A stretch of DNA of 64,000 bases from an uncultured bacterium (GCA_903906305.1 CAIVJR010000005.1:6485-70484); one strand, 5' to 3'; counted from the stretch's first letter, positions 48,265 through 52,113 are shown. Program-made: numbers and translations. The notes: generated from the letters alone by a model not told the origin.

Positions 48265-48353
48265 AGTCTCTCTCCCTGTTATAAAAGATCATGCAAGATT
48301 TATACCTCACCGTGTGAAGTAATTAGCTTATTATACTACTACAAAAGGAAATA

Positions 48354-48384
48354 TTACACTGTATACACCCCCCCCCTGCTTACC
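48354..48384. repeat. Left copy of a direct repeat TGTATACACC-C(n)-TGCTTACC flanking the DUF3800 gene; contains a C9 homopolymer
   Basis: It matches 49207-49231 except for poly-C length (9 versus 6). Confidence 0.6.
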
Positions 48385-48451
48385 ACTTCCATCACCAAAA
48401 TAAATAAATTAAATCTCGAGAATATCGTCTTCCCTGATGTAAAATATCCCT

Positions 48452-49090
48452 ATGATTATTTTCATAGATGAATCAGGAGATACTGGCTTTAAAGTTGCCC
48501 AAGGTTCAAGTGAATCCTTTGTTATTGCACTTGTAATTTTTGATACAGAGTCTGATGCAGAAGAAACTGCTGAAATCATCAATAATTTCAAAGAAGAAAT
48601 GAAGCAATCGTTAAGATCAGAAGTAAAGTTTAACAAGCTAGAAAAACACGAGCGATTAGCATTTTTGAATAGGATAAAAGATTGCAAATTTAGAGTTCGT
48701 ACGATAATTGTAAATAAAGAGTTTGTTAATACATCTAATCCAAAGAGAAATACAAAGTTCTACTATCGATTCTTTCTTGAGCAACTCTTAGAACATAACC
48801 GTAATTCCATAATCGATGCTCAATTACGATTAGATGGTTTGGGAGAAAGGAGCTTTAAAAGAGCAATGAATACCTATCTTCGTCAGAATTTAAATAGGAA
48901 GACAAAAGAGAAAGTTATGAGAGATATTCAATTCGTTAATTCAAAAAATAACTCTCTGATACAGCTTGCGGATATGATTGCAGGAAGTATACATAGGTAC
49001 TATCAAAAGGATAAAAATGATAGCAAGGTTTACAAGAAGGTTATAAAGGAGAGAATAGAAGAGGAATGGATATTTAAAAATTCGATCTAG
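48452..49090 (+). CDS. DUF3800-family protein
   Basis: The N-terminus MIIFIDESGDTGF is the hallmark of DUF3800. The 212-aa length fits. Confidence 0.65.
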   Translation: MIIFIDESGDTGFKVAQGSSESFVIALVIFDTESDAEETAEIINNFKEEMKQSLRSEVKFNKLEKHERLAFLNRIKDCKFRVRTIIVNKEFVNTSNPKRNTKFYYRFFLEQLLEHNRNSIIDAQLRLDGLGERSFKRAMNTYLRQNLNRKTKEKVMRDIQFVNSKNNSLIQLADMIAGSIHRYYQKDKNDSKVYKKVIKERIEEEWIFKNSI

Positions 49091-49151
49091 TGCCTATCTT
49101 AGTGCTTGTCTAAGAACGCGCACCATGCGGTGACAATTCGGACACTAGATC
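49084..49151. repeat. GC-rich multi-stem palindromic element overlapping the DUF3800 stop codon
   Basis: Outer 11-bp inverted repeat gatctagtgcc...ggacactagatc encloses two inner hairpins (cttag-N7-ctaag and cacc-N4-ggtg). It is markedly more GC-rich than its surroundings. Confidence 0.5.
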
Positions 49152-49206
49152 TTTGTATTTACATTATATACTACCTAAGAAAAGGATGTCTAGTTTTTAA
49201 TTAGTT

Positions 49207-49231
49207 CATTGTATACACCCCCCTGCTTACC
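49207..49231. repeat. Right copy of the direct repeat flanking the DUF3800 gene
   Basis: TGTATACACCCCCCTGCTTACC; see the left copy. Confidence 0.6.
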
Positions 49232-50067
49232 TATTCATACATCTCAAACAATTCCTCCAACGGAACTTGTATCTCATATACAGGATACGGAAAAGCATTA
49301 ATACATTCTTCTAAAGTATTCGCTGTATCTAAATTCTTTTTAAACACATCATATACCTCTCTGTTTCCAATTAAATCCCATTTAACAAACTGTCCCCATA
49401 ATCCCAAGAAGTTCTTTTCTTTCTTCTCCCTATTCTCCCCTAAAGCATATTTACTTGGAAAGAAACTTTGGTAATTAGGAATATTTTGTAACCATGTAGA
49501 ACTCTTTAAATATTTTGCATCTTCAAAAAGATTCATATTCTCATGTATATACTTAATCATACTTCTAAATTCTTCTCTTCTTTGAGGAAGATACTTAGTC
49601 GAAAGATCTCCATATTTCTCTTCATTTCCATTTTTAAGTAAATCTGTTCTTCTAGGTGAGAAATGTAACCTAATCTGTTCTCTTTGTTTGTTGTAATCAC
49701 CATAGTTAATTTCAAAGCATCCAAACCTATTAGTTTCTTCCTTTTCCTCATTACTAATCTCTATCCTACTGTACTCCTGTTCTAAGAATAGTTTGTATGT
49801 GATGTCCGATATCTCCTTTGGGGTTGAAACTCCTCGTATTTCATCCATATATGCCTTCCAGAGGGGTGAATATATTCCCTTCTCTTCTTCTTCACCATAT
49901 TCTTTGTTTGTTAGAGAGTTGTAGAGATCGGTATATTCAAACATACTTTCCTCCAATGTCTCTCCCGTTATTTCAGATACCTTTTTTGCAAAGGACACTT
50001 GTGCATCAAAATATTCATATGGTTGGGATATTACTTCTACTTTGTTGTCTTCAAGTTCTGCTGACAT
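49231..50067 (-). CDS. Acidic hypothetical protein
   Basis: 278-aa Glu-rich ORF with no recognisable domain. Confidence 0.4.
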   Translation of the reverse strand: MSAELEDNKVEVISQPYEYFDAQVSFAKKVSEITGETLEESMFEYTDLYNSLTNKEYGEEEEKGIYSPLWKAYMDEIRGVSTPKEISDITYKLFLEQEYSRIEISNEEKEETNRFGCFEINYGDYNKQREQIRLHFSPRRTDLLKNGNEEKYGDLSTKYLPQRREEFRSMIKYIHENMNLFEDAKYLKSSTWLQNIPNYQSFFPSKYALGENREKKEKNFLGLWGQFVKWDLIGNREVYDVFKKNLDTANTLEECINAFPYPVYEIQVPLEELFEMYE

Positions 50068-50102
50068 TGTATGTATCTATCAGATTATATGTATAATATA
50101 TC

Positions 50103-50567
50103 ATGAATGAGATAACTATTAGAAAAGTAGAAGTAAAAGATATATTAGGGATTATAAGGGTGATAAACGAGTCTGTAATGGCTACTCATACCAGACTATA
50201 TCCTCCTAAGGATATTCAAGAGACTTTGGATAACTATACCGAAGAGAAGGTTGAAAGATATATCAAGGAATATGATTACTTTGTAGCAGAGTTTAACAAT
50301 GAGATTGTTGGTTGTGTTTTAGCTAAGGAGAGTAAGATGAGGTCTTTGTATGTTCTTCCTTCTTTTATGGGTAAGAGTCTTGGTAAGAGATTAGTAGAAA
50401 AAGCTGAGGAGTGTGTTAAAGCTAATGGTTATAATGAGATATTTCTTTGGTCTAGTTTAGTATCTCATGATTTCTATATACATATGGGTTATGAGGATGT
50501 TAAGGGTATAGAGAATATGGAGGGGTTAATATTGCATATTGAGATGAGGAAAATCTTCAAGCCATAA
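50103..50567 (+). CDS. GNAT-family N-acetyltransferase
   Basis: 154 aa. The acetyl-CoA binding region reads LYVLPSFMGKSLGKRLVEKAEE (Q/RxxGxG/A-like). Confidence 0.7.
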   Translation: MNEITIRKVEVKDILGIIRVINESVMATHTRLYPPKDIQETLDNYTEEKVERYIKEYDYFVAEFNNEIVGCVLAKESKMRSLYVLPSFMGKSLGKRLVEKAEECVKANGYNEIFLWSSLVSHDFYIHMGYEDVKGIENMEGLILHIEMRKIFKP

Positions 50568-50571
50568 AATT

Positions 50572-51174
50572 CTAAGCTACTCTTCCCTGAATATTGTAAA
50601 ATATTTCTTTCGAAAAATTAAATTTTGGGGAGATATTGTCTTCCAAGACTTTAATCACATGCCCTAACATCTGATATGCAACTGCTAGGATAGCCTCACT
50701 AGGAAAAAGAGTATAATCTTTGTCTATGTTAGACCAATCTAATGATTCTGCATTTGTATGACTAAAGCTATGAGTCACTTTTAATACTTTTTCATAATAC
50801 ACTTCTGGGAAACCTACTTCTATCATCCTTTCTTTTAAATTACGATTAGCCCATGTACTTCCAAATCCTTTTTCGGAGATATCTTGAAAATACAAGTCAA
50901 TCCTTTCTTCTGTATCCTTGTTTAAAATCCATTTAAGATTTATAGTATTTTCAATTAATGAACGTAATAAAATAGCAGCTTCTTGATTAAAATTCTTATC
51001 TGTTAAAAGTACAATTGCTTCAGCAATATGAAATGATGTATATCCCAATCCTTCAATTATTATATTTTTGCGAAGATTTGGGAAATCTCTACCTATCTCA
51101 TCAAATATTTTGTTACTTCTATCAATAGTTTCGATTATCAGTTGTCTATATGTAGGTTTTTCTTCTTTTTTCAT
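50572..51174 (-). CDS. Hypothetical protein
   Basis: 200-aa ORF, mainly helical by composition. Confidence 0.4.
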   Translation of the reverse strand: MKKEEKPTYRQLIIETIDRSNKIFDEIGRDFPNLRKNIIIEGLGYTSFHIAEAIVLLTDKNFNQEAAILLRSLIENTINLKWILNKDTEERIDLYFQDISEKGFGSTWANRNLKERMIEVGFPEVYYEKVLKVTHSFSHTNAESLDWSNIDKDYTLFPSEAILAVAYQMLGHVIKVLEDNISPKFNFSKEIFYNIQGRVA

Positions 51175-51197
51175 TAAATTATTCTAGTTAAAAATTA

Positions 51198-51968
51198 TCA
51201 ACTATTCCAAGTATCTTCAGAATTCAGCAGGTATGGTTCTATTGCTTCTCTCCCACCAAGATAAGTATTTCCAAATTGTATAATTGTGGAATACAAGAAT
51301 GCCAATGCTGCTGCAGACGAATTTATTACTACATATCCCGGAATCTGGGATAATGTTTCAAATTGTGTATACTCATCCGAGATACATTCTATAATACTCC
51401 TCTTAATCAATATCCCCCTATCTAACACACATACCATATCTATCAAATTTGGAGTCTTGCTCCGCATCAGATACTTCCCAATTGTTGTGAGATTTCTGCC
51501 AGAGTATGCAAAGATAATTTTAAAAACATCTATTCCAGAAGGATATTCATAACCCATTAATATTCTGGTTAAGGGCATTTCTAAAGTCGAAAGTTTTGAT
51601 AATGTAGCATTCGCCTCTAAAAATTTGTCTGAATCTAAGAATGATTTGATCTCTATAACTGCAAATACTCCTCCAGCTAAATAAGTATTCTCCTCGCCAT
51701 AGTCAAGAAAAGCCGCGCTGTGATTCGTTATTATTGTATCTAGCTGTCCTGTTCTATGCCCTTTGTGATCTATTATTTCACCCGCCGCAACTCGTAACTT
51801 CAGAGGTAATATTTTATTTACAAACTTATTTACAAAAGCTTCTCTATTTGCGCCAATATTCACATTCGCAGATTGTTGTTTTGAACGTTCAAAATATTGA
51901 AGTAAAATCTCCGCTTCCTTGGAAAAATAGTTAAAAAATGGTGTATTCGACATCCAATTTGTTTTCAT
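51198..51968 (-). CDS. Hypothetical protein with a possible PD-(D/E)xK nuclease-like motif
   Basis: The start was trimmed to Met-18 of the ORF (MKTNW...) because the longer ORF would overlap tRNA-Ser. The blocks GQLDTIIT and VFAVIEIK resemble the hD...hhhEhK core of PD-(D/E)xK nucleases. Confidence 0.35.
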   Translation of the reverse strand: MKTNWMSNTPFFNYFSKEAEILLQYFERSKQQSANVNIGANREAFVNKFVNKILPLKLRVAAGEIIDHKGHRTGQLDTIITNHSAAFLDYGEENTYLAGGVFAVIEIKSFLDSDKFLEANATLSKLSTLEMPLTRILMGYEYPSGIDVFKIIFAYSGRNLTTIGKYLMRSKTPNLIDMVCVLDRGILIKRSIIECISDEYTQFETLSQIPGYVVINSSAAALAFLYSTIIQFGNTYLGGREAIEPYLLNSEDTWNS

Positions 51969-51979
51969 AATATAGCAAA

Positions 51980-52066
51980 CGGAGAGGAAGGGATTCGAAC
52001 CCCCGATATGGTTACCCATATAACGGTTTTCAAGACCGTCTCATTCGACCACTCTGACACCTCTCC
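51980..52066 (-). tRNA. tRNA-Ser (anticodon TGA), class II
   Basis: The reverse complement gives acceptor GGAGAGG/CCTCTCC, anticodon stem ACGGT/ACCGT with loop CTTGAAA, a long variable hairpin ATATGG-GTAA-CCATAT, and T-loop TTCGAAT. Confidence 0.8.
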
Positions 52067-52113
52067 ATATATATGAACATAGGGATTATACCAAACAAAT
52101 CACTAATTCTACA

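What the first reader, a model, noticed from the sequence alone, without database searches (positions are those of the whole stretch)
48300..52070. Accessory island next to tRNA-Ser: DUF3800, acidic protein, GNAT, and a possible PD-(D/E)xK protein
Directly 3' of tRNA-Ser(TGA) lies a 3.7-kb stretch of non-housekeeping genes in mixed orientations. They are a DUF3800 gene, a 278-aa Glu-rich protein, a GNAT acetyltransferase, a 200-aa helical protein, and a 257-aa protein with hD...hhhEhK-like blocks (GQLDTIIT / VFAVIEIK) reminiscent of restriction-endonuclease-fold nucleases. tRNA-adjacent blocks of unknown genes that include nuclease-like and acetyltransferase components are a typical location for defence or abortive-infection modules. 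None of these proteins matches a named defence system that I can recognise.
Basis: partly seen in the sequence, partly recalled or inferred. Interest (0 to 1): 0.6.

Follow-up and report, generated by a model that had tools for sequence, protein, structure and literature searches.

The report
Mosaic defence-type gene patch beside tRNA-Ser
The patch is plausible phage defence built from known parts and is not a new kind of system.

Summary
The five genes and tRNA-Ser(TGA) are where the finding says. The 257-aa protein is a PD-(D/E)xK nuclease. It matches DUF6602 and solved NucC structures (E 1.9e-13), and D78/E107/K109 are conserved in its homologues.

The stretch is not a classical tRNA-integrated island. 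It has no integrase, no partial tRNA repeat and only weak compositional deviation. It is part of a ~13-kb variable region between core blocks that are collinear with a related Dojkabacteria genome. That relative keeps tRNA-Ser, the DUF5677 gene and the DUF3800 gene in place. It lacks the nuclease, the GNAT and the 278-aa protein.

The stretch resolves into three modules:
- **Nuclease plus partner:** the NucC-like nuclease and a DUF5677 protein. The nuclease lacks NucC's cyclic-triadenylate (cA3) contact residues, and the window holds no cyclase.
- **Acetyltransferase pair:** the GNAT and the 278-aa protein, a divergent pair found at another locus in a second relative.
- **DUF3800 plus RNA:** The RNA is convergent to the gene and 94% conserved against 62% for the protein.

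DUF5677 relatives repeatedly follow restriction enzymes, but the nuclease–DUF5677 pairing is seen only in this organism. Defence is plausible and unproven.

The parts
51979..52067 (-). tRNA-Ser(TGA), the boundary of the patch. An orthologous tRNA lies at the same place in the relative L011.
   Evidence: ARAGORN; Rfam tRNA 55.8 bits. L011 has tRNA-Ser(tga) at 9856-9943 with a similar promoter.
51198..51971 (-). Gene E: 257-aa NucC-family PD-(D/E)xK DNA endonuclease (DUF6602). Catalytic residues are D78, E107 and K109.
   Evidence: Pfam DUF6602 67 bits. PADLOC Cas-associated PD_DExK 3e-22 and NucC 6e-10. PDB NucC 7zgv 1.9e-13; 6p7o aligned over residues 42-235. Catalytic residues conserved.
50572..51174 (-). 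Gene D: 200-aa all-helical DUF5677 protein, 23 nt downstream of E on the same strand. It is probably co-transcribed with E.
   Evidence: Pfam DUF5677 50 bits. AF2 mean pLDDT 82. Conserved E65, R71, E75 and R91. No terminator-like site between E and D.
50103..50567 (+). Gene C: 154-aa GNAT acetyltransferase, divergent from B across a 35-nt intergenic gap.
   Evidence: Pfam Acetyltransf_10/7/1. No PADLOC hit. 80% identical to the GNAT paired with the B homologue in L015.
49231..50067 (-). Gene B: 278-aa acidic protein of an unnamed family. It forms a conserved divergent pair with the GNAT.
   Evidence: No hit in Pfam, NCBIfam, PADLOC or PHROGs. 22 homologues with strongly conserved motifs. AF2 pLDDT 91.6. 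Only non-significant GNAT-fold matches. Same arrangement in L015.
49080..49151 (-). DUF3800-IX structured RNA (Rfam RF02968), convergent to the DUF3800 gene and overlapping its stop codon.
   Evidence: 58 bits against a gathering score of 36.8, E 7e-11. MFE -24.9 kcal/mol, z -3.4. 94% identical to the L011 copy together with its promoter.
49163..49192 (-). Promoter-like site for the RNA (TAGACA-18-TATAAT). It is the best match in the region.
   Evidence: 11 of 12 consensus positions. Conserved in L011.
48452..49090 (+). Gene A: 212-aa DUF3800 protein (RNase H-like fold according to the literature). The N-terminal IDESGD and C-terminal QLAD motifs are intact.
   Evidence: Pfam DUF3800 72 bits. 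PADLOC PDC-M04A 2e-17 and PDC-S51 6e-8. PHROG hits. Motifs read directly. Fold and motif definitions from PMC7736814 and PMC10910872.
48357..48390 (+). Left copy of the direct repeat CAYTGTATACA-C(6-9)-TGCTTACC, upstream of the DUF3800 gene.
   Evidence: (14-nt exact core; expected 0.01 matches per shuffle).
49207..49232 (+). Right copy of the direct repeat, just upstream of the RNA promoter.
   Evidence: A recognisable copy is kept in L011 on the RNA side.

Best explanation
The stretch is a mosaic of three independent accessory modules. They lie in a long-lived variable region downstream of tRNA-Ser in a Dojkabacteria-like (CPR) chromosome. It is not one integrated island.

**Module 1, genes E and D.** E is a Mg-dependent DNA endonuclease of the NucC/DUF6602 family. 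It is not controlled by cyclic tri-AMP, because the ligand-contact residues are replaced and no cyclase is present. I infer that it acts as a phage-triggered DNA-degrading effector, like the DUF6602 system Damona. The downstream DUF5677 protein D is probably co-transcribed with it. I propose D as its regulator or sensor, or as a second effector.

**Module 2, gene A and the RNA.** The DUF3800 RNase H-like protein and its convergent DUF3800-IX RNA form a protein-RNA pair. The RNA is under stronger constraint than the protein. I infer that the RNA restrains or directs the nuclease.

**Module 3, genes B and C.** The GNAT and the 278-aa protein are a separate two-gene unit with no defence signal.

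**Shown:** gene identities, catalytic residues, the RNA, and the synteny and variability pattern.

**Inferred:** the defence role, the E-D coupling and the RNA's role.
For: **E**
- Family hits to DUF6602, PD_DExK and NucC, plus solved NucC structures.
- D78, E107 and K109 are conserved.
- NucC's cA3 contacts are changed: R53 corresponds to K58, Y81 to S85 (Asp in the family) and T226 to L238. The H136/Y141 latch is not conserved.
- No CD-NTase or Cas10 was found among 56 window ORFs.
- The DUF6602 domain is present in the validated defence system Damona.
- E homologues are scattered across phyla, and several sampled ones sit in defence operons. These include an Eco57I-like RM enzyme (L004), the interior of a Type III RM system (L005), an Abi_2 operon on an Acinetobacter plasmid (L026), and AAA/WYL/DUF2779 genes on another plasmid (L024).

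**D**
- It is on the same strand as E, 23 nt downstream, with no terminator between them.
- Its homologues overlap the 3' end of a Type ISP enzyme (L010) and of a Type III res gene (L012).
- Others lie near a Type ISP enzyme (L020) and beside a ThsB-type TIR gene (L014).

**Mosaic structure**
- L011 is collinear with the window on both sides, yet shares only tRNA-Ser, D, and A with its RNA.
- The B and C pair occurs at a tRNA-Asp locus in L015.

**RNA**
Against: - There is no experimental evidence for any gene in this patch.
- E-D pairing was seen only in this organism. Ten other DUF6602 loci have unrelated partners.
- D stands alone behind the same tRNA in L011.
- A DUF5677 gene tested alone in Enterococcus faecalis was not among the protective candidates.
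- D has no HEPN Rx4-6H motif and no significant structural match, so its biochemical role is unknown.
- D and A are as conserved as the core genes between the two genomes. That is unusual for fast-turnover defence genes.
- Compositional deviation is weak.
Confidence: 0.55

Rival explanations
1. E is a self-sufficient, Damona-like single-gene defence nuclease that inserted between tRNA-Ser and a resident DUF5677 gene. On this reading D has no functional link to E, and their adjacency is historical accident.
For: - L011 has D directly behind the same tRNA-Ser without E.
- No other DUF6602 locus carries a DUF5677 partner.
- Damona is presented as one of 16 anti-phage systems carried on integron cassettes; only its DUF6602 domain is described in what I read.
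Against: - The E-D spacing is tight (23 nt, same strand, no terminator).
- D homologues repeatedly sit immediately behind other DNA-cleaving enzymes, with overlapping stop and start codons.
- DUF6602 genes usually lie in 2-3 gene operons.
Confidence: 0.3
2. The patch is ordinary lineage-specific baggage with no role in phage defence. E would be a DNA repair or recombination nuclease, D and B would be housekeeping proteins of unknown function, and DUF3800 with its RNA would be an RNA-processing pair.
For: - D and A are syntenic at core-like identity (61-64% and 62%) in a relative.
- Composition is close to that of the core genes.
- There are no mobile-element genes within the patch.
- No relatives were found in viral contigs or phage records.
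Against: - E's family is patchy across phyla. It lies on mobilizable plasmids and inside RM systems.
- PADLOC candidate profiles hit A, D and E.
- D homologues neighbour RM and TIR genes in five of six contexts.
Confidence: 0.12
3. It is a classical genomic island that a site-specific recombinase integrated into the 3' end of tRNA-Ser.
For: - The patch abuts the tRNA's 3' end, with an 8-nt gap.
- Its content differs between relatives.
- tRNA-adjacent variable patches recur in related genomes.
Against: - No copy of the tRNA 3' end exists anywhere else in the window, even allowing 3 mismatches.
- The only integrase-type gene is 47 kb away.
- Orientations are mixed, and the modules have different histories.
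- No marked GC or codon shift was found.
Confidence: 0.03

Closest known systems
NucC (the cA3-activated endonuclease effector of CBASS and type III CRISPR systems; PDB 6p7o, 6uxf, 7zgv)
   Same: The sequence homology is detectable over almost the full length. The restriction-endonuclease core is shared, and the active-site motif is equivalent (IDx30EAK in NucC, LDx28EIK here).
   Different: The cA3-contacting Tyr81 and Thr226 and the gate-loop latch are not conserved. Arg53 corresponds to Lys58. No CD-NTase or Cas10 is present in the window. The adjacent partner is a DUF5677 protein.
Damona (an anti-phage system with a DUF6602 domain from the Vibrio cholerae chromosomal integron; bioRxiv 10.1101/2024.07.02.601686)
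   Same: It has the same Pfam domain (DUF6602) and the same secondary profile matches, to Cas PD_DExK and the CBASS small endonuclease.
   Different: It is an integron cassette or prophage gene in Proteobacteria, whereas this gene is chromosomal and tRNA-adjacent in a CPR bacterium with a downstream DUF5677 gene.
DUF3800 genes with DUF3800-I to -XI RNA motifs (Weinberg et al. 2017, PMC5737381; Rfam RF02968)
   Same: This is the same protein family and the same RNA family. The RNA lies next to the gene on the opposite strand, as that paper describes.
   Different: Nothing distinguishes it structurally. The new points are the minimal ~850-bp unit, the flanking direct repeat, and an RNA far more conserved than the protein. 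The function of the class remains unknown.
Type VII retrons (RT plus DUF3800) and the TPR-DUF3800 proteins linked to Cas12a2/Cas12a3
   Same: The effector-like domain is a DUF3800 RNase H-like domain associated with a non-coding RNA.
   Different: There is no reverse transcriptase, no Cas gene and no TPR domain here. The RNA is DUF3800-IX, not an msr-msd RNA or a crRNA.
Restriction-linked abortive-infection riders such as PrrC within the EcoprrI type I RM locus (from my own knowledge); AbiV/HEPN proteins
   Same: The analogy concerns D only. D is a small accessory gene riding directly on restriction or nuclease operons. AbiV and HEPN structures rank near the top of an otherwise non-significant fold search, and there are weak AbiB and PDC-S52 profile hits.
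   Different: D has no ABC-ATPase or anticodon-nuclease domain and no Rx4-6H motif. Fold matches are non-significant (E > 0.7). No activity is known.

Membership tests
NucC (cA3-activated CBASS / type III CRISPR effector nuclease) | Sequence homology to solved NucC proteins | tested here: met
   A profile of E homologues hits 7zgv at 1.9e-13 and 6uxf at 1.2e-8. It aligns to 6p7o over NucC residues 42-235.
NucC (cA3-activated CBASS / type III CRISPR effector nuclease) | Active-site motif ID...EAK (Asp73, Glu104, Lys106) | tested here: met
   D78, E107 and K109 align to the motif. E107 and K109 are invariant and D78 is at least 90% conserved.
NucC (cA3-activated CBASS / type III CRISPR effector nuclease) | cA3 pocket (Arg53, Tyr81, Thr226) and gate-loop latch (His136, Tyr141) | tested here: not met
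   Arg53 corresponds to K58 (K, R or S in the family). Tyr81 corresponds to S85 (Asp in the family). Thr226 corresponds to L238. The latch positions are not conserved, although the alignment in that loop is unreliable.
NucC (cA3-activated CBASS / type III CRISPR effector nuclease) | Encoded with a CD-NTase or a Cas10 cyclase | tested here: not met
   A PADLOC scan of 56 window ORFs of at least 120 aa gave no cyclase family. None was seen in the other E loci examined.
NucC (cA3-activated CBASS / type III CRISPR effector nuclease) | Homotrimer that assembles into a hexamer on activation | not tested
Pfam DUF6602 / Damona-type defence nuclease | DUF6602 domain above the gathering score | tested here: met
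   67.3 bits against a cut-off of 27.
Pfam DUF6602 / Damona-type defence nuclease | Direct similarity to the Damona protein, and anti-phage activity | not testable with these tools
   The Damona sequence was not found in the text or in the one supplementary file held. Activity needs an experiment.
Pfam DUF5677 | Domain above the gathering score, with the conserved core A-I-x-L-L-C...E-A-x-x-L-x-R-S-L-x-E...R | tested here: met
   50.2 bits against 27.1, although only profile positions 11-61 of 166 are matched. R71, E75, E65 and R91 are conserved across 150 family representatives.
HEPN superfamily RNases (AbiV-like) | Rx4-6H catalytic motif | tested here: not met
   R71 is conserved, but positions 76-78 carry no conserved His (L, N, T or H at position 76).
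HEPN superfamily RNases (AbiV-like) | HEPN four-helix fold | tested here: inconclusive
Pfam DUF3800 with its associated RNA (Rfam DUF3800-IX) | DUF3800 domain with the N-terminal DE motif and the C-terminal QxxD motif | tested here: met
   72.4 bits against 21. IDESGD and QLAD are present and are conserved in L011. The motif definition comes from PMC7736814.
Pfam DUF3800 with its associated RNA (Rfam DUF3800-IX) | Covariance-model match above the gathering score, adjacent to a DUF3800 gene | tested here: met
   58 bits against 36.8, covering the full model 1-67 and overlapping the gene's stop codon. The same arrangement is found in L011 at 52.8 bits.
tRNA-integrated genomic island | Integrase at one end | tested here: not met
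   The only Phage_integrase hit is at 204-1541, 47 kb away.
tRNA-integrated genomic island | Direct repeat of the tRNA 3' end at the distal boundary | tested here: not met
   The 23-nt 3' end of the tRNA occurs once in the window when up to 3 mismatches are allowed.
tRNA-integrated genomic island | Presence or absence as a block among relatives, and atypical composition | tested here: not met
   The relative L011 shares two of the five genes in place, and the others have separate histories. Gene GC is 0.30-0.35 against a core of 0.364 +/- 0.015, and GC3 is within the core range except for D.
GNAT toxin-antitoxin modules (TacT/AtaT type) | Small upstream antitoxin in the same operon, with recognition by defence or TA profiles | tested here: not met
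   The GNAT is divergently paired with a 278-aa protein, and PADLOC gives no hit. The definition of these TA modules is from my own knowledge.

The most novel reading that the evidence does not exclude
DUF5677 proteins may be a general accessory partner of DNA-cleaving defence enzymes in CPR bacteria. The partner enzymes seen so far are Type ISP and Type III restriction enzymes and, here, a cyclase-independent NucC-like nuclease. DUF5677 would act as a guard, regulator or back-up effector in the way PrrC rides on EcoprrI. The nuclease-DUF5677 operon would then be an undescribed two-gene defence system. Separately, the 850-bp DUF3800 gene plus DUF3800-IX RNA unit is a minimal, self-contained example. 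It could show what the eleven orphan DUF3800 RNA classes do, for example an RNA antitoxin or guide for an RNase H-like nuclease.
Probability: 0.2. Interest if true: 0.65.

Novelty: new variant of a known kind. Interest (0 to 1): 0.42.

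Why it matters
CPR bacteria have tiny genomes and few recognised defence systems, so it is useful to know what they keep next to their tRNA genes.

Three testable points come out of this patch:
- A NucC-family nuclease has lost the cyclic-nucleotide pocket and has no cyclase. This raises the question of how such stand-alone (Damona-like) nucleases are switched on.
- DUF5677 repeatedly rides on restriction enzymes in this lineage, which gives that orphan family a concrete hypothesis.
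- The compact DUF3800 gene plus RNA pair has an RNA far more conserved than the protein. It is a convenient construct for working out the long-unexplained DUF3800 RNA motifs.

None of this changes current categories, and it remains prediction only.

Tried and rejected
**Island boundary**
- I searched for a tRNA-Ser 3' repeat as an island boundary and found none.

**Source and close relatives**
- An exact-protein lookup of the 257-aa form of E found nothing on record. The public gene call is the 251-aa form.
- Genome and metagenome scans for E and D relatives gave only 4 loci each.
- Viral-contig scans for E, D, A and the RNA core found nothing. A tblastn of E against phage records found nothing.

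**Structure of D**
- Foldseek against PDB and BFVD gave no significant match.
- A PDB sequence-profile search with the D alignment gave nothing.

**Tests of specific ideas**
- Idea rejected: D is a HEPN RNase. It has no conserved His after R71.
- Idea rejected: the other partners of DUF6602 nucleases are cryptic DUF5677 relatives. hmmsearch and hhalign were both negative, and the partners are unrelated to one another.
- Idea rejected: the upstream 251-aa gene in L014 is a DUF6602 nuclease. It shows no similarity and looks like a membrane protein.

**Other checks**
- The fold search for B returned only non-significant GNAT-fold hits.
- Composition and codon analysis gave no clear foreign signature.
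- The Damona sequence was not found in the paper's text or its one held supplementary file.
- The supplements of the Weinberg 2017 paper are not held.
- My search of the fetched loci for the flanking repeat used a wrong spacer length, so it is uninformative.

Full report
**1. Observation**

ORF listing and ARAGORN confirm the layout.

| Feature | Coordinates (strand) | Size | Family evidence |
|---|---|---|---|
| tRNA-Ser(tga) | 51979-52067 (-) | 89 nt | ARAGORN; Rfam tRNA 55.8 bits |
| E | 51198-51971 (-) | 257 aa | DUF6602 |
| D | 50572-51174 (-) | 200 aa | DUF5677 |
| C | 50103-50567 (+) | 154 aa | GNAT |
| B | 49231-50067 (-) | 278 aa | no family in Pfam, NCBIfam, PADLOC or PHROGs |
| A | 48452-49090 (+) | 212 aa | DUF3800 |

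E starts 8 nt after the 3' end of the tRNA. The longer 273-aa ORF overlaps the tRNA, so it is not the gene. B has 15.1% Glu and a pI of 4.7.

**2. Organism and setting**

The window is chromosomal. It carries DnaX, RecR, CysS, RNase HII, RuvB/C, DnaB, RF-1 and SSB. Homologues of D are named Candidatus Dojkabacteria by their sources.

A related Dojkabacteria assembly (L011, GCA_054814005.1) is collinear with the window on both sides, with core proteins 60-76% identical:
- L011 1-9828 matches window 63860-52843, from DnaX to an ABC ATPase.
- L011 15489-20624 matches window 39789-34652.

Between these blocks the two genomes differ, so the variable region is about 13 kb in the window (39.8-52.8 kb) against 5.7 kb in L011.

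| Found in | Content |
|---|---|
| Both genomes | tRNA-Ser(tga) with a similar promoter; D (61-64% identity); A (62%) |
| Window only | E, C, B, two small paralogous genes at 52114-52791, and most genes from 39.8 to 48.3 kb |
| L011 only | a His_Phos_1 gene between D and A, a Trp-repressor-like gene, and tRNA-His |

**3. Is it a tRNA-integrated island?**

No.
- The 23-nt 3' end of the tRNA occurs only once in the window, even with 3 mismatches allowed.
- The only integrase-type gene is at 204-1541.
- Gene GC is 0.30-0.35 against 0.364 +/- 0.015 for core genes. GC3 and codon distance are within the range of short core genes, and only D is clearly low.
- The five genes have at least three separate histories, as described below.

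In related genomes the slot after tRNA-Asp(gtc) holds different accessory sets:
- a Type ISP RM enzyme, DUF5677 and DUF2726 in L010;
- a GNAT, an APH kinase, B and His_Phos_1 in L017;
- the GNAT-B pair in L015;
- a membrane protein, DUF5677 and a ThsB-type TIR protein in L014.

**4. Gene E**

E matches three kinds of profile:
- Pfam DUF6602 (1.3e-18).
- PADLOC's Cas-associated PD_DExK (2.9e-22) and NucC (6e-10).
- Solved NucC structures. A profile of 13 homologues hits Serratia NucC 7zgv at 1.9e-13 and Vibrio NucC 6uxf at 1.2e-8. It aligns to E. coli NucC 6p7o across NucC residues 42-235.

E107 and K109 are invariant and D78 is nearly so. They align with NucC's Asp73, Glu104 and Lys106.

NucC is activated when cyclic tri-AMP binds Arg53, Tyr81 and Thr226 under a gate loop latched by His136 and Tyr141 (bioRxiv 10.1101/694703). 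In E these positions are K58, S85 (Asp in most of the family) and L238. The latch is not conserved. No CD-NTase or Cas10 profile matched any of 56 window ORFs. E is therefore NucC-like in fold and chemistry, but it is not a member of the cA3-activated class.

A DUF6602 protein named Damona is reported as an anti-phage system from Vibrio cholerae integron cassettes, with the same secondary profile matches. I could not obtain its sequence.

**5. Distribution of E**

Only 13 word-sharing homologues were found. The loci are scattered across a Woesearchaeota archaeon, Dehalococcoidia, Acidobacteriota and an unclassified bacterium. Others lie on plasmids of Xanthomonas, Acinetobacter, Aliarcobacter and Paracoccus.

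| Locus | Context of the E homologue |
|---|---|
| L004 | overlaps the end of an Eco57I/MmeI-like RM enzyme |
| L005 | between the mod and res genes of a Type III RM system, next to a ClpP-like gene |
| L026 | in an Abi_2 - DUF6602 - SEC-C operon on a mobilizable plasmid |
| L027 | followed by an HD-domain gene |
| L024 | behind AAA/WYL/AAA_13 genes and before a DUF2779 gene |

The neighbouring partners are unrelated to D and to each other. The nuclease therefore looks like a portable effector that combines with variable partners.

**6. Gene D**

- *Family:* D matches DUF5677 at 50 bits, over the N-terminal core only. Weak PADLOC matches to PDC-S52 and AbiB recur in 9 and 8 of 38 family members.
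- *Size of the family:* an exhaustive profile search found 338 representatives at E <= 1e-3 and 23 at E <= 1e-30.
- *Conserved residues:* the family-wide conserved residues are E/D65, R71, E75 and R91. Position 76 is variable, so there is no HEPN Rx4-6H motif.
- *Structure:* the AF2 model (pLDDT 82) is an all-helical bundle. Foldseek found nothing significant in PDB or BFVD. AbiV and another HEPN protein appear near the top, but with probabilities of 0.2-0.4.

The informative result is the genomic context of D homologues.

| Locus | Context of the D homologue |
|---|---|
| L010 | overlaps the stop codon of a 1017-aa Type ISP enzyme, followed by a DUF2726 gene |
| L012 | overlaps the stop codon of a Type III res gene |
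| L020 | 670 nt from a Type ISP enzyme |
| L014 | flanked by a membrane protein and a ThsB-type TIR gene |
| Window | 23 nt behind the NucC-like nuclease, with no terminator-like site between them |
| L011 | alone, behind tRNA-Ser |

A DUF5677 gene tested alone in Enterococcus was not among the protective candidates (PMC12632615). I infer that D works with DNA-cleaving defence enzymes. The E-D pair itself is unique to this organism, so the coupling carries only moderate confidence.

**7. Gene A and the missed RNA**

An Rfam search found a DUF3800-IX RNA (RF02968) at 49080-49151 on the minus strand. It scores 58 bits against a gathering score of 36.8 and covers the full-length model.
- The RNA is convergent to gene A and overlaps its stop codon.
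- The strongest promoter-like site in the region (TAGACA-18-TATAAT, 11 of 12 positions) lies just upstream of the RNA.
- The RNA folds at -24.9 kcal/mol, z = -3.4.
- L011 has the same arrangement.
- RNA plus promoter are 94% identical over 128 nt between the two genomes. The protein is 62% identical.

A keeps the IDESGD and QLAD motifs that define the family. The literature describes DUF3800 as an RNase H-like fold linked to eleven orphan RNA motifs, to type VII retrons and to Cas12a2/a3 loci. No function has been shown.

A ~30-nt direct repeat, CAYTGTATACA-C(6-9)-TGCTTACC, brackets the gene-plus-RNA unit at 48357-48390 and 49207-49232. Its 14-nt exact core is expected 0.01 times per shuffle. 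L011 keeps a clear copy only on the RNA side. I cannot say whether the repeat is a cassette boundary or an operator.

**8. Genes B and C**

C is a generic GNAT with no defence or toxin profile.

B has 22 homologues with strongly conserved motifs (STWLQNxPNY, FLGLWGQF) and no named family. Its confident AF2 model (pLDDT 91.6) gives only non-significant matches, many of them to GNAT-fold acyltransferases.

In L015 an 80%-identical GNAT and a 75%-identical B homologue sit in the same divergent arrangement with the same 35-nt gap, but in the tRNA-Asp region. B and C therefore move as a unit. Other B homologues sit beside APH, His_Phos_1 or glycosyl-hydrolase genes. Nothing ties this pair to defence.

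**9. Verdict**

The patch contains credible defence-type parts: a NucC/Damona-like nuclease, a restriction-associated DUF5677 gene, and DUF3800 with its RNA.
- It is a mosaic inside a long-lived variable region, not one tRNA-integrated island, and two of the five genes show no defence link.
- Each part belongs to a known family. The new elements are the combination (a cyclase-independent NucC-like nuclease with DUF5677), the recurrent DUF5677-restriction linkage, and the compact DUF3800-RNA unit.
- Everything functional is inferred.

Noticed in passing
window 49080-49151 (-), promoter 49163-49192 (-): A DUF3800-IX structured RNA (Rfam RF02968, 58 bits) lies convergent to the DUF3800 gene and overlaps its stop codon. 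RNA plus promoter are 94% identical to the copy in a relative whose DUF3800 protein is only 62% identical.
   Followed up: yes
window 48357-48390 and 49207-49232 (+): A ~30-nt direct repeat with a palindromic TGTATACA core, a C-run and TGCTTACC brackets the DUF3800 gene and its RNA. Only the RNA-side copy is recognisable in L011. Whether it is a cassette boundary or an operator is undecided.
   Followed up: partly
window 48391-48451 (+) and L011 11935-11995: About 60 nt upstream of the DUF3800 start codon is nearly identical between the two genomes. That is much more conserved than the coding sequence, and it suggests a regulatory element or a leader.
   Followed up: no
window 52114-52443 (-) and 52498-52791 (-): Two small paralogous genes (109 and 97 aa, no family hit) sit between the ABC ATPase and tRNA-Ser and are absent from L011. 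The 39 nt upstream of tRNA-Ser, which includes its -10 box, is repeated at 82% identity upstream of the 109-aa gene. The promoter therefore seems to have been duplicated along with the gene.
   Followed up: partly
L010 5795-11124; L014 7525-10093; L015 3266-10831; L017 5462-9258: In related CPR genomes tRNA-Asp(gtc) marks a second variable slot. It holds, in turn, a Type ISP RM enzyme with DUF5677 and DUF2726; DUF5677 with a ThsB-type TIR gene; or the GNAT/278-aa-protein/APH/His_Phos_1 genes.
   Followed up: partly
L005 1651-8503: An unclassified bacterial MAG has a ClpP-like protease, a DUF6602 nuclease and a 312-aa unknown gene inserted between the mod and res genes of a Type III restriction system.
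   Followed up: no
L010 2157-2231 (-): ARAGORN calls a tRNA with anticodon tta (reported as 'tRNA-Stop') in a Dojkabacteria-like contig. This could be a suppressor tRNA or a miscall.
   Followed up: no
window 44806-46722 (-): Two DUF4386 genes flank one DUF4395 membrane-protein gene, followed by a NUDIX gene, all inside the same variable region. None of these has a counterpart at this position in L011.
   Followed up: no
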